Shown here: piece after piece, positions 7,215 to 64,000 of the stretch
Numbering within the stretch: position 1 is the stretch's first letter
Layout of the letters: every line of letters begins with the position of its first letter
Virus record (IMG/VR): IMGVR_UViG_2579779105_000001
Strand: one strand, 5' to 3'
Length of the DNA: 64,000 nt
Origin: a virus
Taxonomy: Duplodnaviria; Heunggongvirae; Uroviricota; Caudoviricetes
Made by a program: the position numbers and the translations under genes
Notes under the pieces: generated by a model
Seen by the model: only the letters and a program-made list of their open reading frames with translations
What the model was told of the DNA's origin: nothing
The model's database searches: none

Positions 7215-7790
7215 ATGTTAATGGCGAACGATAACGCATATGCAGAAGAAGATCTCATTTTGAGTGACTTCATAGGGAAGCAGGAACGCTGGACCCAAAA
7301 GCGAGAGGAACTTTACGCCTCATTAGTTCGCAAAGGCGTCAATATCGAAACCGCACAGAGCGGCGATATGACAGTGGTAAGCGTTGGATTGCACGGTGTA
7401 AGCGTGTCAGCAATCAATCATGAGCCATACGTTGCGTTATCCGAGTCAATGGTAAGGTTAGTTAAGTTCCTGAAGTACACAGAAGCGAATAATGTAATCA
7501 TTGGCAAAAAGAATATCCCTTTTTCCTCGGCTTTTTACTGGATGATGAAAGGGCTTGATGCCAGGCGGACATCATGGCCTAAAGGGAGCTATATATCGAT
7601 GTTCCGTGGCAGCATTGGCAGCAAAGAAAAGCTCTTCGAATTCTTGCCGGAAGAGGCATTCGATATTGTGGAAGGGTGCGATGTGATGGTGATGCCTCGC
7701 CTGGTAATGATGAATGGTGATTTACAGGCGCAGACAGACTGGTTTGCAACTGGTGTGGATATTATCGCGACTGACTGGGAGGCTTTCTGA
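7215..7790 (+). CDS. hypothetical phage protein with DUF2829-like C-terminal motif
   Basis: 191-aa ORF with an upstream AAAGGAGA RBS; the C-terminus (AFYWMMKGLDARRTSW ... ATDWEAF) resembles the motif in the 15441-16142 protein. Confidence 0.5.
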   Translation: MLMANDNAYAEEDLILSDFIGKQERWTQKREELYASLVRKGVNIETAQSGDMTVVSVGLHGVSVSAINHEPYVALSESMVRLVKFLKYTEANNVIIGKKNIPFSSAFYWMMKGLDARRTSWPKGSYISMFRGSIGSKEKLFEFLPEEAFDIVEGCDVMVMPRLVMMNGDLQAQTDWFATGVDIIATDWEAF

Positions 7791-11580: not shown

Positions 11581-12618
11581 TTACCAGAGCTTTGCGGCGC
11601 GCTGCGTTTGGGGGAATGTGTATCCGTAACGTTCTTCGATTGCTTTGCCGTATTTTTTACGCGCTTCATTCAGTTTGATGCCGGTCAGGTCGTCTCCAGA
11701 GGCCATCATTACGTCTAACAATTCCAGATCCATTTTATCCAGCCTTGCCATTGCTTCACGCGATGTACGAATCTTACGTTCAATGATATGGCGAATAGCC
11801 GGATCGGCATCCTCCAGCATCTTAGCTGATTTCTGCTTAAGGTTTTCGTTGCGGATATCGATGTTCCTTAAGATATACGACTTCGCAACGTAGCTTGGCT
11901 GATGTTTTTCCAGGTCACGAACACGATATAAGCTAAAGTCGCCGAGAAGGCTGCAAGGCACCGATTCGACGCCAGAATAAATTGTAATGCTACGGCGTTC
12001 ACCAACATTATTGACAACGGGGATCGTTGTCTTCGGTAGTTTTGCGAAAACGAATGCGCCATGTGCGCCAACTCTAAAGCGAGAAAGGGCATTGCTGCCT
12101 TCGATGTTTGTTGTCAGCACAACATCTGTATATGCCTCTTTACGCGCCCGGTAGACCTCGCCTTCAGGCTCAGCTTCAAAGAAGCGCTGTTCTTCTTCAA
12201 GAGCACCTACGATTTGAGAAAAAACCCTATTTTTCAGGCTTTTCTTTATGATTTTGTCGTATTTTTTGAGCAATTGTTCACGTGTAAATGTACGTGTTGT
12301 TGTAGCGCTTTGCACAACAACATGCGTGCTTTGATTGGTGTCCTCAATGATGAATGGGATCGGAGAATATACAGACTCAACAATGTTAGACGCTTTGCCG
12401 TCAGCATTACGGCACAAGTCAACAAAGGCTTTCCATTCTGCGAGGCACTTTTCAGCTTCTTCTAGTACATTTTGGTCGTGTGTTAGTGCAACGTGGCGGA
12501 ATTCCTCGCCAGCATAACTGGTATCATGGAAAACAGAGTTTGCGACCACCAGCTCTTTCCACCGTTCAGCGGTTTGCAGGAACCGTTTGTACTCTTTCTC
12601 GATCGACTTCTTACTCAT
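11581..12618 (-). CDS. hypothetical protein; candidate C1-like repressor by position and operator context
   Basis: 345-aa ORF convergent with pacB; an operator-like motif sits just upstream at 12637-12652. No sequence-level confirmation. Confidence 0.3.
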   Translation of the reverse strand: MSKKSIEKEYKRFLQTAERWKELVVANSVFHDTSYAGEEFRHVALTHDQNVLEEAEKCLAEWKAFVDLCRNADGKASNIVESVYSPIPFIIEDTNQSTHVVVQSATTTRTFTREQLLKKYDKIIKKSLKNRVFSQIVGALEEEQRFFEAEPEGEVYRARKEAYTDVVLTTNIEGSNALSRFRVGAHGAFVFAKLPKTTIPVVNNVGERRSITIYSGVESVPCSLLGDFSLYRVRDLEKHQPSYVAKSYILRNIDIRNENLKQKSAKMLEDADPAIRHIIERKIRTSREAMARLDKMDLELLDVMMASGDDLTGIKLNEARKKYGKAIEERYGYTFPQTQRAAKLW

Positions 12619-12636
12619 TATTCCTACTCGATTTAG

Positions 12637-12652
12637 TTTTCTAACATAAAAT
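12637..12652 (+). promoter_or_regulatory. operator-like site TTTTCTAACATAAAAT
   Basis: Motif instance 19 bp upstream of the start of the 11581-12618 gene. Confidence 0.45.
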
Positions 12653-12830
12653 CCCTATGACAAATCTATGTCGAATAACAGAGTGAGTAAAGGATCGAAC
12701 TATGATTTTTTTGTCATCAACTTTAGAAAACCAACCGTTGAAACCACACTTCGCAAATTAAAGACCATGAAGGCAACGTGTTACTGTCCATCATCAATCT
12801 ATGATGGATTACAAAAAAAATCGGCATTTT

Positions 12831-12864
12831 ATAACTTTAAATAATGGGGATTATTTAAAGTTAG
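12831..12864. other. lox-like recombination site (13-bp inverted arms, 8-bp spacer)
   Basis: ATAACTTTAAATA-ATGGGGAT-TATTTAAAGTTAG; arms match 12/13. Same architecture as loxP (ATAACTTCGTATA-ATGTATGC-TATACGAAGTTAT), sharing the outer ATAACTT and the spacer ATG start; 150 bp upstream of the Cre-like gene. Confidence 0.65.
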
Positions 12865-13015
12865 GCTATAATCATGTGTAGATGAACAGTATTGACATCA
12901 CTGAAAATACGTGCCTCGAATCAAAGGCTTGTATTTTGAAAATTAACTTATAGCTACCCTGTCATTTTTATATTTTTCGCGTAGCGTCATATGTATATAG
13001 AGGCGAAATAGTTTC

Positions 13016-14044
13016 ATGGGAGAATTAATTATCTCTGGCAGTTCCGGTGGTTTTCTGCGCAACATTGGCAAAGAGTACCAGGAAGCCGCAGAAAACTTTA
13101 TGCGGTTCATGAATGACCAGGGGGCTTATGCGCCGAATACTCTGCGCGACCTCCGGTTGGTGTTTCATTCCTGGGCGCGCTGGTGTCACGCTCGCCAGCT
13201 CGCCTGGTTCCCGATCTCACCAGAAATGGCCCGCGAGTATTTTCTTCAGCTGCATGATGCCGATCTGGCTTCGACCACCATTGATAAGCACTACGCCATG
13301 CTGAACATGCTGCTTTCGCATTGTGGCCTTCCGCCACTTTCGGATGATAAAAGTGTTTCTCTGGCTATGCGGCGCATCCGGCGCGAAGCGGCAACTGAAA
13401 AAGGCGAACGAACAGGCCAGGCTATACCGCTGCGGTGGGACGATCTGAAACTGCTCGACGTCCTGTTGTCCAGGTCAGAACGGCTGGTGGACCTGCGCAA
13501 CCGGGCTTTTCTCTTTGTTGCATACAATACGCTGATGCGTATGTCGGAAATCTCGCGTATTCGTGTAGGAGATCTGGACCAAACAGGTGACACTGTCACG
13601 CTACATATTTCACACACGAAGACAATAACGACCGCCGCCGGGCTTGATAAGGTGCTTTCCCGTCGCACTACCGCTGTGCTGAATGACTGGCTGGATGTTT
13701 CCGGGCTTCGCGAACATCGTGACGCAGTGCTGTTCCCGCCGATACACCGTAGCAATAAGGCCAGGATCACGACAACGCCCCTTACTGCACCTGCAATGGA
13801 GAAAATATTCAGCGACGCCTGGGTGTTGCTGAATAAAAGAGATGCTACGCCAAACAAAGGGAGATACCGGACGTGGACCGGGCATAGTGCACGCGTCGGG
13901 GCCGCTATTGATATGGCTGAAAAGCAGGTGTCTATGGTGGAGATCATGCAGGAAGGAACCTGGAAGAAACCGGAAACACTTATGCGGTATCTGCGCCGTG
14001 GCGGTGTGTCTGTGGGGGCTAATAGCCGCCTGATGGATTCGTAA
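13016..14044 (+). CDS. Cre-like tyrosine site-specific recombinase (divergent from P1 Cre)
   Basis: 342 aa. Conserved blocks shared with Cre: WFPxxPEDVRDYLL-like, SVSLAMRRIRREA, LAFxxIAYNTLLRIAEIARIRVxDI, WSGHSARVGAAxDMA, and the C-terminal Tyr region (MRYLRR). Confidence 0.85.
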   Translation: MGELIISGSSGGFLRNIGKEYQEAAENFMRFMNDQGAYAPNTLRDLRLVFHSWARWCHARQLAWFPISPEMAREYFLQLHDADLASTTIDKHYAMLNMLLSHCGLPPLSDDKSVSLAMRRIRREAATEKGERTGQAIPLRWDDLKLLDVLLSRSERLVDLRNRAFLFVAYNTLMRMSEISRIRVGDLDQTGDTVTLHISHTKTITTAAGLDKVLSRRTTAVLNDWLDVSGLREHRDAVLFPPIHRSNKARITTTPLTAPAMEKIFSDAWVLLNKRDATPNKGRYRTWTGHSARVGAAIDMAEKQVSMVEIMQEGTWKKPETLMRYLRRGGVSVGANSRLMDS

Positions 14045-14047
14045 ATT

Positions 14048-14062
14048 AAATTTCTAACACAT
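14048..14062 (+). promoter_or_regulatory. operator-like site AAATTTCTAACACAT
   Basis: Motif instance just after the cre-like stop and upstream of the 14118 ORF. Confidence 0.4.
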
Positions 14063-14117
14063 CTTTTTAGATTAACGCCTTTGATGTAAAGTACCCTCGC
14101 CTATTTAGGAGGGTGCT

Positions 14118-14462
14118 TTGCAGAGTCAAATCACGGAATCAAGACGCTTCAAGGTGGATGGTTACACCGTAACCTTCGCTGCTGGTGTTAAGAACAGTCA
14201 TGCTGTCGTTGTGTTCGGCATCATGACCGGGCTTGAGGCCGTCCCTGTGTTTACCCTCGAAAAAAACTGGCGAAATCTGGAGGAAGCAGAAAGCTACGTC
14301 CGGAAAGTAACCATCATTGCCGCCGAAAAACTCCTGGCCCACTATCAGGAAAATTATCGCACTATGGTCGAGAAGATTAATCTCGCTTTCACTCGCCCCA
14401 CTACCGGCTTTATTGCACCGGATACTAATGCAGGTCGCTATCCTGCAAGGGGGCGTCGGTGA
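14118..14462 (+). CDS. hypothetical protein (cra-like position)
   Basis: 114-aa ORF downstream of the cre-like gene; stop overlaps the next start. Confidence 0.4.
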   Translation: MQSQITESRRFKVDGYTVTFAAGVKNSHAVVVFGIMTGLEAVPVFTLEKNWRNLEEAESYVRKVTIIAAEKLLAHYQENYRTMVEKINLAFTRPTTGFIAPDTNAGRYPARGRR

Positions 14463-14935
14463 AAACTTATTACACATCTCTGAATTGTTACCCGTCTTCC
14501 TATCCAGAATTATCCGGGAAGCTGTTAGCTCTATTAGCTAAAGCACCTACGGAATGGTTTAAGCCAGTCGTTATCAATCCACACTTCCTGGATTACGGAT
14601 CTGTTCGCACTCGTAACGAACTCAAAAACCTACTGGCGCATGGATTCATTCGACACCGTGCCGCGAAAGGCTATCAGTTAGCGATTGCGCCAGAAGAGGC
14701 TGTGCGGCTATTCGCATATCGTGACAGCCAGACAAAAGCTCGGGTAATAGCTCAAATACTTCATAACGGCAGCACCTATGCCCGCCAGTTTGGCGGCGAC
14801 ACGTCGCAGTTCTTGCGGGCGGTGCGATCGCTGGAGGAGCAAGGAGTTATTGAAAGTTCCTGTCTTCCTGTTCCTACCGTTCCACATATCAAACGTCGGG
14901 TTTACACCTTCACGCAGAGAGCTAAAAAACAATGA
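14459..14935 (+). CDS. hypothetical protein
   Basis: 158-aa ORF, translationally coupled to its neighbours. Confidence 0.4.
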   Translation: MKTYYTSLNCYPSSYPELSGKLLALLAKAPTEWFKPVVINPHFLDYGSVRTRNELKNLLAHGFIRHRAAKGYQLAIAPEEAVRLFAYRDSQTKARVIAQILHNGSTYARQFGGDTSQFLRAVRSLEEQGVIESSCLPVPTVPHIKRRVYTFTQRAKKQ

Positions 14936-15426
14936 TTTACGTAAAAGTGAAACGCCTACATCCGGCAGCAAAACTTCCAGCTTATGCCACCTCCGGATCG
15001 GCGGCGATGGATTTTGAGGCTGTTGAAATAAAACCATGCGTCGATAGCAATGGTGCAATTTCCTCAAGCTGGTGGGTGTATACCGGACTGGCTATGGAGA
15101 TCCCGCCCGGCTGGTGTCTGAAACTCTATCCGCGATCCGGATTGGGCTGCAAAAAACATACTCGCCTGGCTAACTGCGTAGGAATTATCGACTCCGATTA
15201 TCGCGGCGAAATCATGGCAAAACTGATTACTGATCCCGGCGGGGAAGGCGTTTGTCTCAAGCCTGGAATGGCTGTCATGCAAGGAATTTTTGAACGTGTT
15301 GAACAAGTCTCACTAGTCGAGGTTGAGGAACTCAACGAAACGGAACGTGGTGCTGGTGGCTTTGGTAGCACATCGGAAGGCCACTTTGAAATTAAGCGTT
15401 CACCGCTTCAGTACGAAAAGTTATAA
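14932..15426 (+). CDS. dut: dUTP diphosphatase (dUTPase)
   Basis: Motifs PRSGLG (II), GIIDSDYRGE (III) and ERGAGGFGST (V); motif IV is divergent (GMAVMQGIF rather than GERIAQ). Confidence 0.75.
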   Translation: MIYVKVKRLHPAAKLPAYATSGSAAMDFEAVEIKPCVDSNGAISSSWWVYTGLAMEIPPGWCLKLYPRSGLGCKKHTRLANCVGIIDSDYRGEIMAKLITDPGGEGVCLKPGMAVMQGIFERVEQVSLVEVEELNETERGAGGFGSTSEGHFEIKRSPLQYEKL

Positions 15427-15440
15427 GCAGAGAAAAGACT

Positions 15441-16142
15441 ATGAATAACATGGCAACGAAAGAGCTTTTTAAGTTCCTTCCCAAATACAAAGCTCACAAA
15501 AACGTTAGTGCATCGAAAATCAAAAATGTTGTTATTTTCGGAGTAACTGATGCCCCACTTTGGGGCAGCATCGAACTCGTTGAACCAAAAGGGGCAACAG
15601 TTTGTGTTGACGCAATGTTTTTACAAAAACACCGACCAAAAACTGGCGGGTATCTGATCGTTTATGAAAACGGTTATCTGTTCTATGCCCCGGAGAAACC
15701 ATTTGAGGAACGCTATGGCCTGGTTAACGACGTCTCCAAAAATGGAACCACGGTCATCATTACGGATGACAACGGCGAGATGATTAATCTTACCGGGAGC
15801 GTAACTATTTCTGCTGGTGGCATCACCACCCAGCAAGAAGAAATCGACCTTGAAGCAGCCGACTTTTCTGACGCGCTGATGTGGCTGAAGGATGGCAAGA
15901 AAGTTGCCCGGCGCGGGTGGAACGGCGAAAACCAATTCTGCTGGCTGGTTCCAGACAAACACGGCGCTTCAAGACTAACCCCTATAAAACATGCCATCAA
16001 TGGAGAGCTTGAAATCAATTTCGACTCTCCTCTTGCTCCTTATGGTACGCATTTCGCTTTGAAAAATGCACAAGGTGTAGTTGTTCCGTGGGTGCCTTCT
16101 GTAGGCGACTTACTGGCATGTGACTGGTTTGTAGTGGAGTGA
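15441..16142 (+). CDS. phage protein with DUF2829-like C-terminal domain
   Basis: ALMWLKDGKKVARRGWNG ... VVPWVPSVGDLLACDWFVVE; family name recalled from memory, not verified. Confidence 0.45.
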   Translation: MNNMATKELFKFLPKYKAHKNVSASKIKNVVIFGVTDAPLWGSIELVEPKGATVCVDAMFLQKHRPKTGGYLIVYENGYLFYAPEKPFEERYGLVNDVSKNGTTVIITDDNGEMINLTGSVTISAGGITTQQEEIDLEAADFSDALMWLKDGKKVARRGWNGENQFCWLVPDKHGASRLTPIKHAINGELEINFDSPLAPYGTHFALKNAQGVVVPWVPSVGDLLACDWFVVE

Positions 16143-16148
16143 TTTAAC

Positions 16149-16949
16149 GTGGAAAATACTAAAGCAATTCAATACCGCTTGCGTAATGGCCTGCTGGTGG
16201 CTGTTAACGCCGACATGTCACTGCCGTTTGACACGATTGAACGTACTATCATGACGTATCTCGGCTTTAATGAAGAGCTGAATGAAGAGCATGGCGTAGC
16301 TATATGGAGTGATGCAGGAAGCGGCGTTCATCGTTACATCACCGCCAGGGGCAAAGACTACTCTCTGGAAGAACTGTTTACCCTTGCACAGTCTTTCGAA
16401 TGTGTAGCATTAGACATGTTTAATGATCCTGCTATAGCGCAACGACTTATACGCGAGCTTGGGCTATCCGTTACACCAATTATCTTTAAGAATGGCAGCC
16501 TGACTGGCACATGGCGCGTAGAACGCATCTCAAACTACCTTCCATATAACCGACAGTTAAATGGAGTAATCTCCGGCGTTAATCAGCCCGTAGCGTGTGA
16601 AAATGTAAACCTGGTTGCCGCTGTTTTGGCAACCGCATGTCGTGTTATCGGTTTGGCTAAACAGGCTTTTATTCATTTCCCAAATGGTGCAGAAGGTAGC
16701 GCAGAGATTATCGCGTGTGATTTCGAATTTACCTGGATGCTACGCGAATATCTGGACCAAACAGTGTTCCGCGCCGAAGAACTGGATATGTATATCACGT
16801 CAACGATTCCTGATGATGTACGTGCTGAAGCAATCGCCACAGCAAGGGCCAAATGCCGTGCGGCGATTGCAGAGCAGGCCAAAGAAGAACCGTCCGATGA
16901 AGCCGTGGCTGATGTTGAAGCAGAGGTAGCGGAGGATGCTGACGCCTAA
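16149..16949 (+). CDS. hypothetical protein with acidic C-terminus
   Basis: 266-aa ORF followed by a terminator hairpin. Confidence 0.45.
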   Translation: MENTKAIQYRLRNGLLVAVNADMSLPFDTIERTIMTYLGFNEELNEEHGVAIWSDAGSGVHRYITARGKDYSLEELFTLAQSFECVALDMFNDPAIAQRLIRELGLSVTPIIFKNGSLTGTWRVERISNYLPYNRQLNGVISGVNQPVACENVNLVAAVLATACRVIGLAKQAFIHFPNGAEGSAEIIACDFEFTWMLREYLDQTVFRAEELDMYITSTIPDDVRAEAIATARAKCRAAIAEQAKEEPSDEAVADVEAEVAEDADA

Positions 16950-17004
16950 AAACATCACCGAATTAGCTGGCTGACAGCAGAAAAAATCATTGAGTGATAG
17001 TAGG

Positions 17005-17034
17005 AAGCCCGCCTGGTTGAGCGGGCTTCTTTTC
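17005..17034. terminator. bidirectional terminator-like hairpin (GAAGCCCGC ... GCGGGCTTC)
   Basis: Sits between the convergent 16149-16949 gene and doc; flanked by A-rich and T-rich runs. Confidence 0.5.
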
Positions 17035-17413
17035 AAATATTGGGACCAAATAATTCACGTAGTTTTTCCGCTACTGAAGATACGGGGATTTCACCAGTTG
17101 CGGCCCCCACCGCTAGTTCCACCAGCACGGGAGAATCATATACCTGTATGCCGTTACGGCGTAGAAATAGCAGCGCACTGTTTAGCGCGGTACGCTTATT
17201 GGCATCATTGAATATATGCCCTCTCGCCGTAGCTACCAGGTAGGTGGCGGAGACTTCGAAAAGGTCGGTGATCTCTTCGTAGGCAACTCTGGCCTGAACT
17301 CTACCGATAATGGCCTCTGCCCTACCCGGATCTGACATTCCCGGCAGGCCGCCGTAGCGGCTTATATTCGCATCATGAAGCGCAATAAGTTCTTCCGGTG
17401 ATATATGCCTCAT
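17033..17413 (-). CDS. doc: Doc toxin (death on curing; Fic-fold kinase)
   Basis: 126 aa, [39 protein letters not shown]...; close to P1 Doc as recalled. Confidence 0.9.
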
Positions 17414-17634
17414 TATCGGTTAACCAGTTCCTTGTTGGTGGAGTCCAGGGTGTCAAACAGGGATGCAAATTCAGCATCCAGCGCCGCTTTTTTGTAGGCT
17501 TCAAAAGTAGCCTTGCTGACAATTACTGCTGGCTCTCGGCCTCTGCGGGTGATTTCAACCTCTTCCCCGGCTTCAACATTGTTGAGCACTTCAGAAAGGT
17601 TGCCGCGCGCGGTACGGAAGTTAATGGATTGCAT
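17413..17634 (-). CDS. phd: Phd antitoxin (prevent host death)
   Basis: 73 aa from [73 protein letters not shown]; matches P1 Phd as recalled. Overlaps the doc start. Confidence 0.9.
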
Positions 17635-17706
17635 AAACACCTCATGTACTCGTTATGTGTACACAACTATAAACTTCACAGGTATAAAGCACCAGCACTT
17701 TGCAGC

Positions 17707-18096
17707 TTAAATCACCGGACAATCGTCAAATTCCCCACTTCGGACATCATTGATGACATGAGTGATCACACCAAAAACAGCATTACTCCCCGTGCATCCA
17801 TCGTCATCCACTGGTAACGCCTCTTTCCTCCCGGTGCTTAAATCCTCCAGGTGCTGGCGCGGATACTTCCTGTATCTCTTTATGCGATATTCACCCTCCA
17901 TAGCGCACACAAGCAGAGAACCATCAACCGGAGTAAGCGAGGAATCAACCACCAGCAAAGCACCCTGCAATATTCCCTCACGGTGATGGCTATCAGCTGC
18001 CCGCATGAAGTAGGTTGCTGATGGATGCCTGATTAGTTGCTGATCAAGAGAAATTCGGCTTTCAACATAATCCGCCGCAGGAGAAGGGAAGCCCAT
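17707..18096 (-). CDS. humD: UmuD-like protein (HumD homolog)
   Basis: LIRHPSATYFMRA ... VVDSSLTPVDGSLLVCAMEGEYRIKRY ... VFGVITHVIN matches the UmuD' peptidase S24 fold. Confidence 0.8.
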   Translation of the reverse strand: MGFPSPAADYVESRISLDQQLIRHPSATYFMRAADSHHREGILQGALLVVDSSLTPVDGSLLVCAMEGEYRIKRYRKYPRQHLEDLSTGRKEALPVDDDGCTGSNAVFGVITHVINDVRSGEFDDCPVI

Positions 18097-18194
18097 AGCG
18101 TTTTACCTCAATGATACTGTTTATTCATACAGTATACATTAAAGATGCTTGAAGTGTGCAATAGCGCGATGCTTTGCGCTCGCCTGGTGGTGCG

Positions 18195-18446
18195 TTATTT
18201 TTTGGCTATATCTTCTTTCTGATACACCGGATCGCTCCCTTTTGGCAACTGGAGGCTTAACTGCCGGTAGTGCCGTAGCCGTTCCATGAAATAGGCGCGC
18301 AGGTTTTCCGGTTGCTCACGGGCCACCTGCTCTGCAATCACAGGTATATTCAGCCGTTCTTTGTAAGCAACGCCGCTGGCGGCAAGGTCTACGTTCACCT
18401 TGTCTCGCTCTTCCTGGCTTTTAGCTGCTATATTTCGATCTGACAC
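18195..18446 (-). CDS. hot: DNA polymerase III theta-subunit homolog (Hot)
   Basis: [43 protein letters not shown] aligns with E. coli HolE ([43 protein letters not shown]). Confidence 0.8.
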
Positions 18447-18478
18447 AAGAAACCTCCAGGAGTTAGTGGATCAGGCAC

Positions 18479-18829
18479 ATGCACAACAACGTTCTCAATG
18501 TTAGCCGTTCAATTCAGACAATCAGAGACTGCACCAGTGTGGTGGCATCAATCCCATTGCGAAACAGCATAGACGAACTGCAAATTCGTGTATTGAATCT
18601 GAATCAGGCTAATAAGCAATTGCGCTTTATTTTGACGCTGAAAAGTGAAACAGAGGGGATAAAGCACAGCGTAAAAGTATTTTCTGAGGCCATTCTGCTT
18701 AATGAGAAGCTCCGGCATCTGGTAAGGCCAGAACGTCAATATCCTGACGTCCTGGCGCGTGAAAAAGACCTTCTTTCTGAAGTTCAGGATAGGGTGATCG
18801 ATTTCGTCAAATGCTATCCCCTGCATTGA
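18479..18829 (+). CDS. hypothetical protein
   Basis: 116-aa ORF divergent from hot; preferred over the overlapping antisense ORF 18548-18826 on composition. Confidence 0.3.
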   Translation: MHNNVLNVSRSIQTIRDCTSVVASIPLRNSIDELQIRVLNLNQANKQLRFILTLKSETEGIKHSVKVFSEAILLNEKLRHLVRPERQYPDVLAREKDLLSEVQDRVIDFVKCYPLH

Positions 18830-29967: not shown

Positions 29968-29997
29968 GTGTTAGAAAATCAATTTTGATTTTCTAAC
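29968..29997. promoter_or_regulatory. palindromic double operator (TGTTAGAAAATCAA / TTGATTTTCTAACA)
   Basis: Perfect 14-bp inverted repeat of the recurring motif, in the divergent promoter region between the 29161-29772 gene and the ref-like gene. Confidence 0.55.
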
Positions 29998-30043: not shown

Positions 30044-30619
30044 ATGAAGCAAAGCTATTGGGAGAAACAGACACAAAAAGCCCTGCAAAAACTGGCTGAT
30101 CCGAAATGGCGGGAGGAACAAAGGGCAAAGCGTCTTCAGCAAGCTCAACGCCAGCAGCAGCGTGCGCGAGAAAAAGCCGCATCGCCTGAATATCGGCAAA
30201 AGAAAATTGAAAAAGCGAAGCAATATGAACAGCGAAGAAAAGAGAAGGCCGCTTCTGCTCCTGTCAAAAAAACTCGCGCGTCACGCGGCCTGAAAGGCAG
30301 AACACTCACAGCAGATGAGCGCCGGATACAAACTGCCATCGGTGCTCTCCCCTGCATTGCCTGCCATATGCACGGACAGCATAGCCCTGTGGTATCCCTG
30401 CACCACATCTTCGGAAGAACAGCAGAGAACGCGCATAAATACGTCCTCCCTTTGTGTAAATGGCACCATCAACACGCAGCGCCAGCAGAGATCCGCGAGC
30501 AATACCCCTGGTTGGTTCCTGTTCATGCTGATGGAAAAATAGGCGGTAAAGCAGATTTCAGGCGGCACAATGCTGATGAAATGACGTTGTATCAGATGGC
30601 GATTGAATTGACGAATTAG
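30044..30619 (+). CDS. ref: Ref-like HNH endonuclease (recombination enhancement function)
   Basis: Highly basic N-terminal region plus C-terminal HNH-like Cys/His cluster (CIACHMHG ... HHIFG ... CKWHHQH). In P1, ref is C1-controlled, consistent with the upstream operator palindrome. Confidence 0.55.
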   Translation: MKQSYWEKQTQKALQKLADPKWREEQRAKRLQQAQRQQQRAREKAASPEYRQKKIEKAKQYEQRRKEKAASAPVKKTRASRGLKGRTLTADERRIQTAIGALPCIACHMHGQHSPVVSLHHIFGRTAENAHKYVLPLCKWHHQHAAPAEIREQYPWLVPVHADGKIGGKADFRRHNADEMTLYQMAIELTN

Positions 30620-58304: not shown

Positions 58305-58394
58305 ATAGCTTTAATTATGTGTGCTGGAGGGTTGCTCATTTCCCGTCAGCACCCACGACCTCAACGATAGCGGGTAGGGAAGGTAGCGCAATGT

Positions 58395-58688
58395 TGAGGG
58401 CATTTTTTACATCATCAATCCATCAGCAATGAAGGCATTCTTTACATATTTCAATAATATCAATCAGTTAACACAGTGAATGATAATAAAAAAGCGCAAT
58501 AAGAATGCACGATACGCACGATATTGGTTGAGGGCGATTTTTACATAATCCTTACATATCAATATGTTATATAAAAACACAACTTGCTAATAACGAGATA
58601 CATGCAATTAAGATGTAAAAATTGCCCTCAATTGCCGATCGTTAAGGGCAAATTCTACACCTTGAGAGGGGTGTAAAAATTGCCCTTA
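58395..58688. repeat. incA-like iteron cluster downstream of repA (at least 5 iterons, both orientations)
   Basis: TGAGGGC(A/G)(T/A)TTTTTACA-type units at about 58395, 58529, 58612 (inverted), 58643 and 58669 (inverted). Confidence 0.6.
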
Positions 58689-59441
58689 AGACTGCTGATA
58701 GGTAAATTTTATCCTGGTAACTTTGCCGCCTTCCGTCACCTCTGAGAAGACTATTTTCATTTTTGTATTTTTTTCAATCTCTGCTACAGCCTTCGTTAAA
58801 AAACTTCTCTTAAATTCGGCATACCGCTGATAACTTTTTGGTAACCCATAACGCTCCCGCATCCATTCGACGCCAAGTATGGCAAAGCCGCTTCCATCAT
58901 CCTTCCTGTACTGGCATAAGGACTCATAAAGCCGCATAGAATAAGGATTTGTAAGGCGAGATACTTCGGTAAAATTCAGCCTTGTGAATCTCTTATCAAG
59001 CAGAGTAAAAAACGGCATGAGATATGGATTAAGATGAATAATGTAAGTCCCGCGCCGTGGTGAATAGGCATCCTTAATCATCCAGGGATAAGACTCATAA
59101 CTGTCTTCTGATTCGGTCGATTCATCAGGGTTATATATCGTAACTTTCTTCTCGCTAAGACCTGAAATGGCCTTACGAATATCCTTGCTGGCTTCAGCAG
59201 AGGGCAAATTATACATCTCTGCATATTCGTTGACCGTCAACTCACAGGCACCTGAACCAAGAACGCCATCCTTAGAAGCATAGCGAAGTCTTCCCACCAC
59301 AATAAACAACAGTCGCTTTTGGTCGCGAGTCAGGTGATAAGCAGCCTCCGTGATCTCATTGGCTTGTGCCAGACTACGACTAATAGGTGTCGCTGACTCA
59401 ATCAGGCTGACGGCTTTTGCTGTTAATTCCGCTCTGTTCAT
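58686..59441 (-). CDS. repA: iteron-binding replication initiator RepA
   Basis: Start set at MNRAEL; flanked by origin iterons upstream and control iterons downstream, as in P1/RepFIB-type replicons. Confidence 0.7.
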   Translation of the reverse strand: MNRAELTAKAVSLIESATPISRSLAQANEITEAAYHLTRDQKRLLFIVVGRLRYASKDGVLGSGACELTVNEYAEMYNLPSAEASKDIRKAISGLSEKKVTIYNPDESTESEDSYESYPWMIKDAYSPRRGTYIIHLNPYLMPFFTLLDKRFTRLNFTEVSRLTNPYSMRLYESLCQYRKDDGSGFAILGVEWMRERYGLPKSYQRYAEFKRSFLTKAVAEIEKNTKMKIVFSEVTEGGKVTRIKFTYQQS

Positions 59442-59465
59442 AACCCTGTGTGATCCTTCAAATGG

Positions 59466-59583
59466 TGAGGGCAATTTTTACACCACTTTGAGGGCAATTA
59501 CTACACCTTTTGAGGGCAAATCTTACACCTTCTGAGGGCAAATCTTACACCGATCGTATTTAATTGAGGGCAAATCTTACACC
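59466..59583 (+). repeat. origin iterons: five direct 19-bp repeats TGAGGGCAA(A/T)T(C/T)TTACACC
   Basis: Units at 59466, 59489, 59511, 59533 and 59565; an inverted copy at 59706-59724. Confidence 0.8.
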
Positions 59584-63700: not shown

Positions 63701-64000
63701 AAGTGGCTGATATCGCAACAGCCATACAACAAAAACGCACTGTTAATCACGATACAGAAATCATTGATCTACTTCCGGGAGATCAAGTATCCCCTTTTAC
63801 TCCGAAAACCCCACAGCAGGAGCAGGCTCTAGCAATCAACCAGGCTATGGCGGGCTTTTCGTCTGCAGCGCCAGCACCGAAAACCCCACAGCAGGAGCAG
63901 GCTATAGCAATCAGCCAGGCTATGGAGGGCTTTTCGTCTGTAGCGCCAGCACCGAAAACCCCACAGCAGGAGCTGGCTCTAGCAATCAACCAGGCTATGG
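60706..64000 (+). CDS. large virion protein, tape-measure/Sit-like; 3' end lies outside the window
   Basis: Frame 1 is open from ATG 60706 to the window end (at least 1098 codons) and is absent from the ORF track because it has no stop. Gly/Ala-rich hydrophobic segments and C-terminal tandem repeats. Confidence 0.6.
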   Translation, partial: MASTPYVKSPGRKIQSSSRETLIAAGKREVILKENKDRIAIIDAIQGASTNELNALAEIKDAILSGRGSITQLGENQGKVSQRLSRRLIASEPYVSDDAKNTQANPYIKRLPMKKGRTQINNGEERLIVATNTSERVHFSSSRQSAQKLKGSVPVAANSAPLEPQSPQSQKGPLRDSNGRFVSQKNNEDIARKKEWQKARKADAKLQEGFLRKLGSIIGVDGNQSSSEESLTDAAGVGAGGPLWMAARGMYDITKEITGKAVSLKEWVEKGKGEASPSKATSPAIAYPAVVNTQKATSATAFNNAVETKSAQAVEEQTKILQTNDNKIIDGLENVSDEVVKLRKSVSSGNKFGLSDLWKNRASRRNKINIGDQAGKNKRNKPKRKGRNLGKKALSVGEKAAAGTAAAGAGAVAAKTVKTKVSKAKDISTTSDASKGIAKETKNTTKAVKSAGVVAEEATIKTGETVAKKKTESLALKSAAKIGVKSAASTAARAIPIIGSVAMAGYDAIDGYTDTDAQKAAFGLSDDDAVSEQQKTAYATANVLDMGGLVSGATNLIGKGISALGFERAGEKLQDFDTGDIARGVNGAVDITKSVFGSLKDTFLSTDENTKQVKKAVEDGTKKTVDAIHSLGEQLQGGRNGEDGVGEHGYTSPTEFSAPANNTIAADLNIGGSNAKNRNYRNNNLGNLVFANQEGATLESPNAKGEQRFARFNTPEEGIRALANQVSSYYNGTSAAAGYQKLQTVSSIISKWAPPNENNTNQYIDNVSKYLGVSPNEKIDVSKPEVMTQLVRAIATKEGGNPAVNNEFIKNALGAFNTNTGRWEGQFSDETLARINKIQKENGGQLIARDSQYSVGRKVKYANGKSPAQPVLNAVPTATQQPIEVAQHAQAVKKPQKTGNQPQPINPENADVNTGSPSSLLERLIAINESGISGASNLFGGAATSLAGTSLDLVKDFALATSFGSISSLSEKAKGMDQALTEKISGLTGKSFGFKKASQVADIATAIQQKRTVNHDTEIIDLLPGDQVSPFTPKTPQQEQALAINQAMAGFSSAAPAPKTPQQEQAIAISQAMEGFSSVAPAPKTPQQELALAINQAM
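63802..64000 (+). repeat. 75-bp tandem repeat (at least 2.6 copies) encoding a 25-aa unit PKTPQQEQALAINQAMAGFSSAAPA
   Basis: Copies begin at 63802, 63877 and 63952, with a few substitutions between copies. Confidence 0.85.

What the first reader, a model, noticed from the sequence alone, without database searches (positions are those of the whole stretch)
14118..16949. Accessory island between cre and phd-doc (where P1 carries res-mod) holds dUTPase and DUF2829-like proteins
In P1 the region downstream of cre/ref is the restriction-modification hotspot. Here the equivalent position carries five coupled genes including a dUTPase with a divergent motif IV (GMAVMQGIF instead of the usual GERIAQ) and a DUF2829-like protein, with a second DUF2829-like protein at 7215-7790. 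Phage dUTPases are known to moonlight as signalling proteins. The island is a plausible defence or counter-defence cargo slot.
Basis: partly seen in the sequence, partly recalled or inferred. Interest (0 to 1): 0.45.

Follow-up and report, generated by a model that had tools for sequence, protein, structure and literature searches.

The report
D6-type phage-plasmid dUTPase/Tad2 operon
The five genes are a real, tightly coupled operon that is a conserved part of D6-like phage-plasmids (not a variable island), and it carries a dUTPase with an unusual active-site change plus a predicted "sponge" protein of the Tad2 family that phages use to mop up bacterial immune signals – already annotated and largely already reported.

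Summary
The window is a D6-like (P1-family) phage-plasmid of E. coli. The "cre" is Dre: 340/342 identical to D6 Dre, 41% to P1 Cre.

The five + strand ORFs at 14118-16949 are real and translationally coupled. A strong hairpin terminator follows them.

- ORF3 is a trimeric dUTPase. The motif IV oddity is confirmed and sharpened: Ala114 replaces an Arg present in 101/101 other homologues, and the change is fixed in a small enterobacterial phage-plasmid clade.
- ORF4 carries a C-terminal Tad2-like domain (PF11195, formerly DUF2829). Its best solved relative is ModTad2, the His-ADPR sponge. The core pocket residues are kept, and the domain is fused to a Dec-like OB-fold.
- ORF5 is a homologue of P1 IsaA, function unknown. 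ORF1 and ORF2 are orphans.

The "variable cargo slot" reading is mostly wrong. The block is present in about 110 of 116 dre-positive plasmids and is syntenic in Klebsiella and Raoultella relatives. What varies is the Tad2-like gene (three pocket/insert alleles, truncations, absences) and the DNA beyond ORF5.

A 16-bp motif, probably the D6-type C1 operator, sits just upstream of ORF1 in all relatives. This suggests repression in the prophage and early lytic expression.

Tad2 in D6-like elements has already been reported. Interest is modest.

The parts
12832..12863 (.). rox-like recombination site for Dre: TAACTTTAAATAAT-GGGG-ATTATTTAAAGTTA. Context only, not part of the operon.
   Evidence: Read from the sequence. 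The D6 rox at L003 4909-4940 has the same arms but spacer TGGC.
   Evidence: 340/342 identical to D6 Dre and 41% to P1 Cre. Pfam Phage_integrase.
14044..14059 (+). Operator-like 16-mer AATTAAATTTCTAACA, a putative D6-type C1 repressor binding site about 60 nt upstream of ORF1
   Evidence: The core TTTCTAACA occurs 9 times in the window against 0.69 expected. The 16-mer is a perfect match here, upstream of c1 (12631) and at 30614. It is conserved upstream of ORF1 and of c1 in all nine D6-like loci, including Klebsiella and Raoultella, and is absent from the P1 loci. The assignment to C1 is inferred.
14118..14462 (+). ORF1, 114 aa, basic (pI 9.8), function unknown
   Evidence: phrog_1968 E=4e-48. 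No Pfam, NCBIfam, PADLOC or PDB match. Only a weak resemblance to P1 C8, 24% identity, E=0.06.
14459..14935 (+). ORF2, 158 aa, basic (pI 10.0), an orphan of unknown function
   Evidence: phrog_6669 E=2e-97. Only 4 clusters among 1.84 billion representative proteins. No PDB match.
14932..15426 (+). dut, a homotrimer-type dUTPase with motifs I, II, III and V intact and motif IV GMAVMQ (Arg replaced by Ala114)
15441..16142 (+). ORF4, 233 aa: an N-terminal Dec-like OB-fold (about aa 15-120) plus a C-terminal Tad2-like domain (aa 137-233) carrying a long 'type A' insertion (aa ~171-200)
   Evidence: Pfam PF11195. PDB hits to ModTad2, SptTad2, SPO1 Tad2 and HgmTad2. Model and Foldseek search. Pocket residues W160, N161, W217, S220 and D223. 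Allele typing.
16149..16949 (+). ORF5, 266 aa, acidic (pI 4.5): a homologue of P1 IsaA, function unknown
   Evidence: 47% identity to P1 IsaA over about 225 aa. 14 clusters, most on 87-110 kb contigs and named only from Enterobacterales. Model pLDDT 82 with only weak fold matches.
17004..17033 (+). Intrinsic terminator: GAAGCCCGC-loop-GCGGGCTTC followed by TTTT. It ends the operon and abuts the doc stop codon.
17033..17634 (-). doc-phd addiction module, the right-hand boundary of the block
   Evidence: 95-97% nucleotide identity to P1, P7 and SJ46 phd-doc.
7215..7790 (+). Second, very divergent Tad2-like protein, 191 aa, with the domain at aa 103-190. It lies upstream of lpa-pacA-pacB.
   Evidence: PF11195 E=1.7e-9, 38.5 bits. 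phrog_7362. No PDB match with a single sequence. Not detectably similar to ORF4 by BLASTP. A homologue is labelled 'MW1434 family type I TA system toxin' in RefSeq.

Best explanation
The region is the conserved dre-distal operon of a D6-like phage-plasmid, not an accessory island. Five translationally coupled genes end at an intrinsic terminator. They are preceded by a conserved operator-like site.

Inferred regulation: this site lets the D6-type C1 repressor silence the operon in the plasmid-prophage state, with expression early after infection or induction.

The products:
- Two small basic orphan proteins.
- A trimeric dUTPase. Presumably it keeps dUTP low during phage DNA synthesis. Its clade-specific loss of the motif IV arginine may change its kinetics.
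- A two-domain protein whose C-terminal Tad2 domain most likely acts as a sponge. It would sequester TIR-derived ADPR-type signals (Thoeris), and possibly cyclic-nucleotide signals, so that host abortive-infection effectors are not triggered.
- An IsaA homologue of unknown role. It travels with the Tad2-like gene as a two-gene cassette in P1-like phages too.

Status of each step. Shown: gene identities, coupling, conservation, pocket residues and fold. Inferred: C1 control, timing of expression, ligand binding and anti-defence activity.
For: Element identity: 97% nucleotide identity to phage D6, and the same gene order is annotated there.

Coupling and terminator.

Backbone status:
- dre in 116 plasmids, island at 80% coverage or more in 110, dut in 127.
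- Synteny holds in Klebsiella variicola and Raoultella elements.

dUTPase: passes the NCBIfam equivalog cut-off. Motifs II, III and V are invariant in the clade.

Tad2-like domain:
- Pfam 77 bits.
- ModTad2 E=3.6e-13 and SPO1 Tad2 E=2e-7.
- Foldseek probability 1.0, target-normalised TM-score 0.73-0.88.
- The equivalents of SPO1 W25, N26, W73, S76 and D79 are W160, N161, W217, S220 and D223. W160, W217, S220 and D223 are invariant in 45 homologues.
- Variation concentrates in the insertion and pocket region that forms the second ligand site in HgmTad2 and MoTad2.
- Repeated N-domain deletions leave the Tad2 domain intact.

Prior report: a 2025 preprint found 'Tad2 AcrIIA7 (anti-Thoeris)' in 93% of D6-like and 56% of P1-like phage-plasmids.

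Operator:
- Motif statistics and conservation next to ORF1, even where a 289-aa ORF separates it from the recombinase.
- In P1, the ssb-isaA operon that carries the Tad2-like gene in relatives is C1-controlled through Ossb.
Against: - No member of this two-domain, 211-233-aa P1/D6 subgroup has been tested experimentally. Characterised Tad2 proteins are single-domain tetramers of about 90 aa.
- The adenine-contacting and water-coordinating residues of SPO1 Tad2 (I63, T65, D67, H71, T78) are not conserved. Ligand specificity in this family cannot be read from sequence.
- The insertion is modelled with low confidence, pLDDT about 43.
- No sigma-70 promoter-like site was found in 12600-17700. The promoter that the putative operator would control is therefore unidentified.
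- The motif has not been shown to bind C1.
- The Arg-to-Ala change in motif IV, and a natural dut-tad2 deletion fusion that removes motif V, leave open whether catalysis matters.
- Three of the five products have no assignable function.
Confidence: 0.6

Rival explanations
1. One reading: the interval is a hypervariable accessory slot, equivalent to the P1 res-mod hotspot, into which defence or counter-defence cargo is swapped.
For: - P1 carries unrelated genes downstream of cre: c8, ref, mat, res and mod.
- The Tad2-like gene is present, absent or allelic among relatives.
- Extra genes appear just beyond ORF5: a 366-aa ORF, an ars operon, and HicAB in place of Phd-Doc.
Against: - Four of the five genes are essentially invariant in content across about 110 of 116 dre-positive plasmids and across genera.
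- There is no compositional discontinuity.
- No PADLOC defence match.
Confidence: 0.12
2. The dUTPase is mainly a regulatory or moonlighting protein, like the staphylococcal phage Duts that derepress SaPIs. On this reading the loss of the motif IV Arg reflects relaxed or altered catalysis.
For: - R114A replaces a residue present in 101/101 other homologues and is fixed over a clade spanning 65-99% identity.
- The segment between motifs I and II varies greatly in length and sequence within the clade, while motifs II-V are invariant.
- A natural deletion variant fuses Dut to Tad2 and removes FGSTS of motif V.
- Motif IV takes part in Stl recognition in the staphylococcal system.
Against: - All other catalytic motifs, including the motif III Asp and the motif V Arg/Phe, are strictly conserved. 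That argues for retained catalysis.
- The protein passes an equivalog model.
- No partner repressor or PICI target is known for these elements.
- The variable insert is not at the position of staphylococcal motif VI.
Confidence: 0.15
3. The DUF2829 proteins are not sponges. They would be type I toxin-antitoxin toxins (the RefSeq label 'MW1434 family') or anti-CRISPR AcrIIA7-type proteins.
For: - RefSeq names homologues of the 7215-7790 protein 'MW1434 family type I TA system toxin'.
- AcrIIA7 is a DUF2829 protein.
Against: - The MW1434 label comes from a purely bioinformatic list of S. aureus prophage genes.
- ORF4 and the second protein are acidic, soluble-looking proteins of 191-233 aa.
- AcrIIA7 activity against SpyCas9 could not be reproduced, and that protein binds gcADPR and cGG.
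Confidence: 0.04
4. ORF4 is a virion-associated or structural protein: a Dec-like capsid-binding OB-fold carrying a Tad2 domain. Either the Tad2 domain is delivered with the particle, or it has a non-immune ligand.
For: - The N-domain matches the phage L decoration protein Dec by sequence (E=0.0085) and by fold (Foldseek E=1.4e-3, probability 1.0, 29% identity over 82 columns).
- One homologue carries an N-terminal phage tail-fibre repeat.
- P1-family phages are known to package anti-restriction Dar proteins (general knowledge; mentions Dar).
Against: - The gene lies in a non-structural operon next to dut, or next to ssb in P1-like phages.
- The N-domain is repeatedly deleted in natural variants, including D6 itself.
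- Dec's trimerising C-terminal spike is absent.
Confidence: 0.08

Closest known systems
Phage D6 dre-orf2-orf3-dut region (GenBank AY753669) and D6 genome orf117-orf113 (MF356679 / NC_050154)
   Same: Same element type, gene order and about 97% nucleotide identity. Dre is 340/342 identical. dut and the DUF2829 gene are already annotated there.
   Different: - D6's DUF2829 protein is a 146-aa in-frame deletion derivative lacking the OB-fold. It carries the 'type B' insertion; the window has the full 233-aa 'type A' allele.
- D6 has pdcA-like and orf109 genes that the window lacks.
- The rox spacer differs.
Tad2 sponges: SPO1 Tad2, ModTad2/MoTad2, HgmTad2 (AcrIIA7), SptTad2, Tad2_71
   Same: PF11195 domain, the same predicted fold, and the conserved W-N...W-x-x-S-x-x-D pocket. 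Closest to ModTad2, which binds His-ADPR in the canonical pocket and cUMP in a second pocket.
   Different: - Two-domain architecture with a Dec-like OB-fold, and a longer, unrelated insertion between beta2 and beta5.
- The adenine-side contacts differ.
- No binding or anti-defence data exist for this subgroup.
Bacterial and phage homotrimeric dUTPases (E. coli Dut 1dud, 8y1q, Brucella 3mbq)
   Same: Full-length alignment at E=1e-21 to 1e-25, with motifs I, II, III and V present.
   Different: Motif IV Arg is replaced by Ala, with Ile to Val and Ala to Met alongside. There is a variable insert between motifs I and II, and a 16-aa C-terminal tail.
P1 ssb-(DUF2829)-isaA operon
   Same: The Tad2-like/IsaA gene pair occurs in the same order in the P1-like phage Ro157c2YLVW and in SJ46. 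IsaA is 47% identical to ORF5. The P1 operon is C1-controlled through Ossb.
   Different: The position in the genome differs: after ssb rather than after dre-dut. Reference P1 has lost the DUF2829 gene through a deletion of about 684 bp.
Staphylococcal phage signalling Duts (80alpha, phi11)
   Same: A phage trimeric Dut with a lineage-variable insert. Motif IV is implicated in partner binding there.
   Different: The insert is at a different position. No Stl-like partner is known, and the staphylococcal Duts keep canonical motif IV.

Membership tests
Tad2 / PF11195 (Thoeris anti-defence 2-like) | Profile match above the curated threshold | tested here: met
   ORF4 scores 77.4 bits and the 7215-7790 protein 38.5 bits, against a cut-off of 25.
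Tad2 / PF11195 | Sequence and fold similarity to experimentally characterised Tad2 structures | tested here: met
   For ORF4: ModTad2 E=3.6e-13, SptTad2 E=1e-8, SPO1 Tad2 E=2e-7, HgmTad2 E=9e-7; Foldseek probability 1.0, target-normalised TM-score 0.73-0.88. Not met for the 7215-7790 protein with a single-sequence search.
Tad2 / PF11195 | Canonical ligand-pocket residues (SPO1 W25, N26, W73, S76, D79) | tested here: met
   The equivalents in ORF4 are W160, N161, W217, S220 and D223. The type C allele in relatives has N changed to K, and the 7215-7790 protein has N changed to P.
Tad2 / PF11195 | Small (about 90 aa) single-domain homotetramer | tested here: not met
   ORF4 is 233 aa with an extra N-terminal OB-fold domain. 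Oligomeric state could not be tested.
Tad2 / PF11195 | Binds an immune signalling nucleotide and relieves Thoeris, CBASS or Pycsar defence | not testable with these tools
   Needs binding and plaque assays.
Homotrimeric dUTPase (PF00692, NF001862) | Profile match above the curated threshold | tested here: met
   PF00692 54.2 bits against a cut-off of 22. NF001862 121.5 bits against 103.
Homotrimeric dUTPase | Five conserved motifs, including the motif IV G-x-R-I/V-A-Q | tested here: inconclusive
   Motifs I (AAMD), II (PRSGLG), III (GIIDSDYRGE) and V (RGAGGFGSTS) are present. Motif IV keeps Gly and Gln, but Arg is replaced by Ala114, whereas 101/101 other homologues have Arg.
Homotrimeric dUTPase | dUTP to dUMP + PPi activity | not testable with these tools
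   Needs an enzyme assay.
Variable defence/anti-defence cargo hotspot | Gene content differs among close relatives while the flanks are conserved | tested here: not met
   For the block as a whole: at least 80% of the island is present in 110 of 116 dre-positive plasmids, and it is syntenic across genera. The feature is met only for the Tad2-like gene and for the segment distal to ORF5.
P1 IsaA family | Full-length sequence homology to P1 IsaA | tested here: met
   47% identity over about 225-262 aa, E=2e-86. The family has no known function.
C1-controlled operon (P1-type immunity regulon) | Repressor operator overlapping the operon's promoter | tested here: inconclusive
   No P1-type operator is present. 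A different 16-mer is enriched in the window, lies upstream of c1, lpa and ORF1, and is conserved in relatives. No promoter was detected, and binding was not tested.

The most novel reading that the evidence does not exclude
The P1/D6-group proteins may be a distinct two-domain class of Tad2 sponge, a Dec-like OB-fold plus a Tad2 domain. Their three recombining insertion/pocket alleles (types A, B and C) would confer different signal specificities, for example His-ADPR, N7-cADPR or cyclic nucleotides. On this reading they act together with the always-adjacent IsaA protein, and perhaps with an Arg-less, kinetically altered dUTPase, as an early anti-signalling module under C1 control.
Probability: 0.12. 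Interest if true: 0.6.

Novelty: new member of a known kind. Interest (0 to 1): 0.3.

Why it matters
D6- and P1-like phage-plasmids are common in clinical E. coli, Shigella and Salmonella. Knowing that they carry a conserved, probably early-expressed Tad2-type sponge helps explain how they establish themselves in hosts that have TIR-based immunity.

The practical value here is a correction. The block is backbone, not cargo. The arms-race signal sits in one gene: its alleles, truncations and losses. The dUTPase clade lacking the otherwise universal motif IV arginine is a clean natural test of what that residue does.

None of this overturns current understanding. The gene families are known, and Tad2 carriage by D6-like elements has already been reported.

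Tried and rejected
- PADLOC scan of all ORFs, plus the optional 366-aa ORF6 found in relatives: no defence-system match.
- Function of ORF1, ORF2 and ORF5:
  - Pfam, NCBIfam and single-sequence PDB searches gave nothing.
  - A profile-versus-PDB search for ORF5 gave only noise, E>0.1.
  - BFVD returned only a P1 IsaA fragment.
- ORF2 against 1.84 billion representative proteins: 4 clusters, so no profile could be built.
- ORF1 as a P1 C8 homologue: 24% identity, E=0.06, not convincing.
- P1 C1 operator consensus: 0 matches with up to 3 mismatches.
- Sigma-70 promoter scan: 0 sites.
- Rfam and tandem-repeat scans of 12000-18500: nothing relevant.
- The AFDB50 fold library was unavailable.
- The role of the motif IV Arg could not be pinned down from the papers held. 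They state only that motif IV contributes to Mg/water coordination and triphosphate selectivity.
Full report
WHAT THE ELEMENT IS

Megablast of 13000-18100 finds phage D6 at 97% identity. It also finds more than 100 non-mobilizable plasmids of about 90 kb from E. coli, Salmonella and Shigella at 95-99%.

The recombinase at 13016-14044 is 340/342 identical to D6 Dre and 41% identical to P1 Cre. A rox-like site lies upstream at 12832-12863.

GenBank AY753669 already annotates dre-orf2-orf3-dut. The D6 genome record annotates the five genes as orf117-orf113, including 'dUTP diphosphatase', 'DUF2829 domain-containing protein' and 'similar to P1 gene isaA'.

CHECK OF THE OBSERVATION

- ORF1 has an AGGAGG Shine-Dalgarno sequence before its TTG start.
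- ORF1/ORF2 and ORF2/dut overlap by 4 nt (GTGA, ATGA). The other two junctions are 14 and 6 nt.
- A 9-bp GC-rich hairpin followed by TTTT at 17004-17033 ends the unit, directly against the doc stop codon.
- GC content (0.43-0.52) does not differ from the flanks.
- Each ORF belongs to a PHROG family, with E-values from 4e-48 to 5e-135.
- The same genes in the same order occur in Klebsiella variicola and Raoultella elements whose dUTPase is only 65-67% identical.

These are real genes, not chance ORFs.

THE dUTPase

ORF3 matches PF00692. It passes the NCBIfam equivalog NF001862 (121.5 bits against 103). It aligns end to end with solved bacterial trimeric dUTPases at E=1e-21 to 1e-25.

I aligned it with 119 database homologues.
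- The D6-type clade, 65-99% identical and from Escherichia, Klebsiella and Raoultella phage-plasmid-sized contigs, has G-M-A-V-[MIV]-Q.
- All 101 full-length homologues outside the clade have Arg at the third position.
- Two further sequences excluded from that set lack it: P0136 (GMVIAQ) and P0225 (GKAIAQ).
- Three other clade-fixed replacements of conserved residues are F26M, V96A and I115V.
- Motifs II (PRSGLG), III (GIIDSDYRGE) and V (RGxGGFGST) are invariant.
- The stretch between motifs I and II is highly variable in length within the clade.

It can be sharpened to a clade-specific loss of an otherwise universal arginine.

The held literature says only that motif IV residues help coordinate the Mg-water network and select the triphosphate. 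It also says that motif IV is one of the surfaces used by staphylococcal phage Duts to bind Stl.

Whether activity is retained cannot be decided here. The strict conservation of the other catalytic motifs argues for an active enzyme.

A natural variant, P0059 (15 sequences, on contigs of up to 88.6 kb), fuses Dut residues 1-143 to the Tad2 domain. The deletion occurs at a shared AGG/GAGG microhomology and removes FGSTS of motif V. So catalysis is at least dispensable in some lineages.

THE DUF2829 PROTEINS

PF11195 has been renamed 'Tad2-like, Thoeris anti-defense 2-like domain'.

What is known about the family:
- Tad2 of phage SPO1 is an 89-aa tetramer. It sequesters 1''-3' gcADPR, using W25, N26, W73 and D79 plus water-mediated contacts.
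- ModTad2 sequesters His-ADPR from type II Thoeris and cUMP in a second pocket.
- HgmTad2 (AcrIIA7) and SptTad2 bind cyclic dinucleotides in a pocket built from the beta2-beta5 insertion.
- A 2025 screen found family members that block Thoeris I, II and IV, CBASS and Pycsar.

What ORF4 shows:
- Residues 137-233 hit ModTad2 (E=3.6e-13), SptTad2, SPO1 Tad2 and HgmTad2.
- An AlphaFold model built on 45 homologues superposes on these structures: Foldseek probability 1.0, target-normalised TM-score 0.73-0.88, with the ModTad2-hisADPR complex as top hit.
- The pocket core is kept as W160, N161, W217, S220 and D223. Four of these five are invariant across the alignment.
- The adenine-side and water-coordinating residues differ.

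ORF4 is not a canonical Tad2, however.
- It is 233 aa long.
- Its confidently modelled N-terminal domain resembles the OB-fold of the phage L decoration protein Dec (phmmer E=0.0085; Foldseek E=1.4e-3 with 29% identity over 82 columns).
- That domain is dispensable in nature. D6 itself carries an in-frame deletion of about aa 21-107, and several other truncated forms exist.

Within the P1/D6 group the Tad2 domain comes in at least three alleles. They differ exactly in the insertion and pocket:
- Type A is the window's allele, with the long insert PDKHGASRLTPIKHAINGELEINFDSPLA.
- Type B is found in D6 and most relatives.
- Type C has a short insert and EWKG in place of GWNG.

Type A DNA is found in only 13 PLSDB plasmids. 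These include D6-like elements and the 96-103 kb E. albertii plasmids. This indicates exchange of alleles between plasmid lineages.

The second protein, at 7215-7790, is a much more distant member. It scores 38.5 bits, has no PDB hit with a single-sequence search, and is not similar to ORF4 by BLASTP. Its pocket Asn is replaced by Pro.

RefSeq labels homologues of this protein 'MW1434 family type I TA system toxin'. That name traces to a bioinformatic list of S. aureus prophage genes and has no experimental basis that I could find.

THE OTHER THREE GENES

ORF5:
- It is 47% identical to P1 IsaA.
- Its family comprises only 14 clusters, most of them on 87-110 kb contigs and the named ones all from Enterobacterales.
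- The model is good (pLDDT 82, pTM 0.76).

ORF2 has four clusters among 1.84 billion representative proteins.

ORF1 resembles P1 C8 only marginally. Both ORF1 and ORF2 are basic, with pI of about 9.8-10.

I cannot assign functions to these three.

IS IT A VARIABLE CARGO SLOT?

Counts in PLSDB:

| Query | Plasmids matched |
|---|---|
| dre | 116 (115 near full length) |
| island 14100-16960 at 80% coverage or more | 110 |
| dut | 127 |

Divergent relatives keep orf1-orf2-dut-[Tad2-like]-isaA. These include elements with dre at 80-89% nucleotide identity, S. Typhi pK91, and the Klebsiella and Raoultella elements.

What varies:
(i) The Tad2-like gene. It is 233, 225, 216 or 146 aa long, is absent in pK91 and Raoultella, and is fused to dut in P0059.
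(ii) The DNA distal to ORF5. Variants include an extra 366-aa ORF, a pdcA-like gene in D6, an ars operon in Raoultella, and HicAB instead of Phd-Doc in Klebsiella.
(iii) A 289-aa ORF between the recombinase and ORF1 in Klebsiella.

So the block is lineage backbone. The second half of that criterion is not met, because the ORFs are not structural or housekeeping genes.

About 130 further P1-like plasmids carry only the Tad2-like gene, at 83% nucleotide identity, elsewhere in the genome.
- In the P1-like phage Ro157c2YLVW the order is ssb-DUF2829-isaA.
- Reference P1 has a clean deletion of about 684 bp that removes the DUF2829 gene between ssb and isaA.

The Tad2-like/IsaA pair is thus a conserved two-gene cassette found at two different positions in the P1/D6 group.

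REGULATION (INFERRED)

No P1-type C1 operator occurs in the window. A different motif is strongly enriched.
- TTTCTAACA occurs 9 times against 0.69 expected. None of 100 shuffles reached that count.
- Its extended form is AWTTWRNTTTCTAAYA.
- Perfect copies lie just upstream of c1 (12631), at 30614, and at 14044-14059, which is about 60 nt before ORF1.
- Inverted pairs lie in the divergent intergenic region at 29969/29990 and, with 40451, just upstream of the 40473 ORF. An imperfect pair lies upstream of lpa.
- In all nine D6-like loci fetched, the motif is present both next to c1 and immediately upstream of ORF1.
- In Klebsiella an extra gene separates the recombinase from ORF1, and the motif stays with ORF1.
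- The three P1 loci have none.

This distribution mirrors that of the P1 C1 operators (Oc1, Olpa, Oref, Omat, Ossb). I therefore infer that it is the D6-type C1 operator, and that the operon is repressed in the prophage and expressed early in lytic growth. That timing suits a sponge that must be present before immune signals build up.

Caveats: no sigma-70-like promoter was detected in 12600-17700, and binding has not been tested.

COMPARISON WITH WHAT IS KNOWN, AND NOVELTY

- The genes and their names are already in GenBank and RefSeq.
- DUF2829 was equated with Tad2 in 2023.
- A 2025 preprint reports 'Tad2 AcrIIA7 (anti-Thoeris)' in 93% of D6-like and 56% of P1-like phage-plasmids.

The headline is therefore already known. 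What I add is modest:
- the block is backbone rather than cargo;
- the Arg-less dUTPase clade;
- the OB-fold/Tad2 architecture with three recombining alleles;
- the Tad2-like/IsaA cassette and its deletion in reference P1;
- a candidate D6-type operator in front of the operon.

I rate this as a new, uncharacterised member of known kinds, with interest of about 0.3.

The most novel reading still open is that the alleles are specificity variants of a distinct two-domain sponge class working with IsaA. I give that about 12%.

Noticed in passing
window 12832-12863: The rox-like site has the same 14-bp arms as D6 rox but spacer GGGG instead of TGGC. Dre itself is 340/342 identical to D6 Dre. A changed spacer could make the site heterospecific with D6 rox.
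   Followed up: partly
window 3284, 8197, 12631, 14044, 25066, 29969/29983, 30614, 40451, 51067: A 16-mer, AWTTWRNTTTCTAAYA, is strongly over-represented (core 9 occurrences against 0.69 expected). Most copies lie between ORFs, and some occur as inverted pairs. It is absent from the P1 loci. It is probably the operator set of the D6-type C1 repressor.
   Followed up: partly
protein P0059 (E. coli contigs of up to 88.6 kb); corresponds to window ~15360-15830: A natural in-frame deletion fuses dUTPase residues 1-143 to the Tad2 domain of ORF4. It removes FGSTS of dUTPase motif V and the whole OB-fold domain.
   Followed up: partly
L009 (P1 NC_005856 21.5-22.5 kb) versus L008 (Ro157c2YLVW): Reference P1 lacks the DUF2829/Tad2-like gene between ssb and isaA because of a clean deletion of about 684 bp. 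The annotated 320-aa P1 IsaA has an N-terminal extension created by this junction.
   Followed up: yes
L002 6943-8043, L005 6304-7404: Some D6-like plasmids carry an extra 366-aa ORF overlapping the end of the isaA-like gene. It has no Pfam, NCBIfam or PADLOC match. The real insertion point for cargo seems to be here, distal to ORF5. Raoultella has an ars operon at this position and Klebsiella has HicAB.
   Followed up: partly
window 7215-7790 and homologues (L006 222-797): RefSeq annotation is inconsistent. This Tad2-like (PF11195) protein is named 'MW1434 family type I TA system toxin' in some records. That label traces to a purely bioinformatic S. aureus list.
   Followed up: yes
window 12600-17700: The sigma-70 promoter consensus scan found 0 sites where 6.1 +/- 2.5 were expected from shuffles. 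This depletion is unexplained.
   Followed up: no
window 58394-59583: Seven copies of a 20-nt repeat, TTGAGGGCAAATCTTACACC, five of them at spacings of 22-32 bp. They look like plasmid-replication iterons.
   Followed up: no
window 63802-64000: Three or more tandem 75-nt repeats, 95-98% identical, run off the end of the window. They are presumably a repetitive coding segment.
   Followed up: no
proteins P0067, P0088, P0100 and P0010: Tad2-like domains occur in other multidomain contexts. Klebsiella and metagenomic proteins carry a C-terminal crAss001_48-related domain (PF21825). One E. coli protein carries an N-terminal phage tail-fibre repeat.
   Followed up: no
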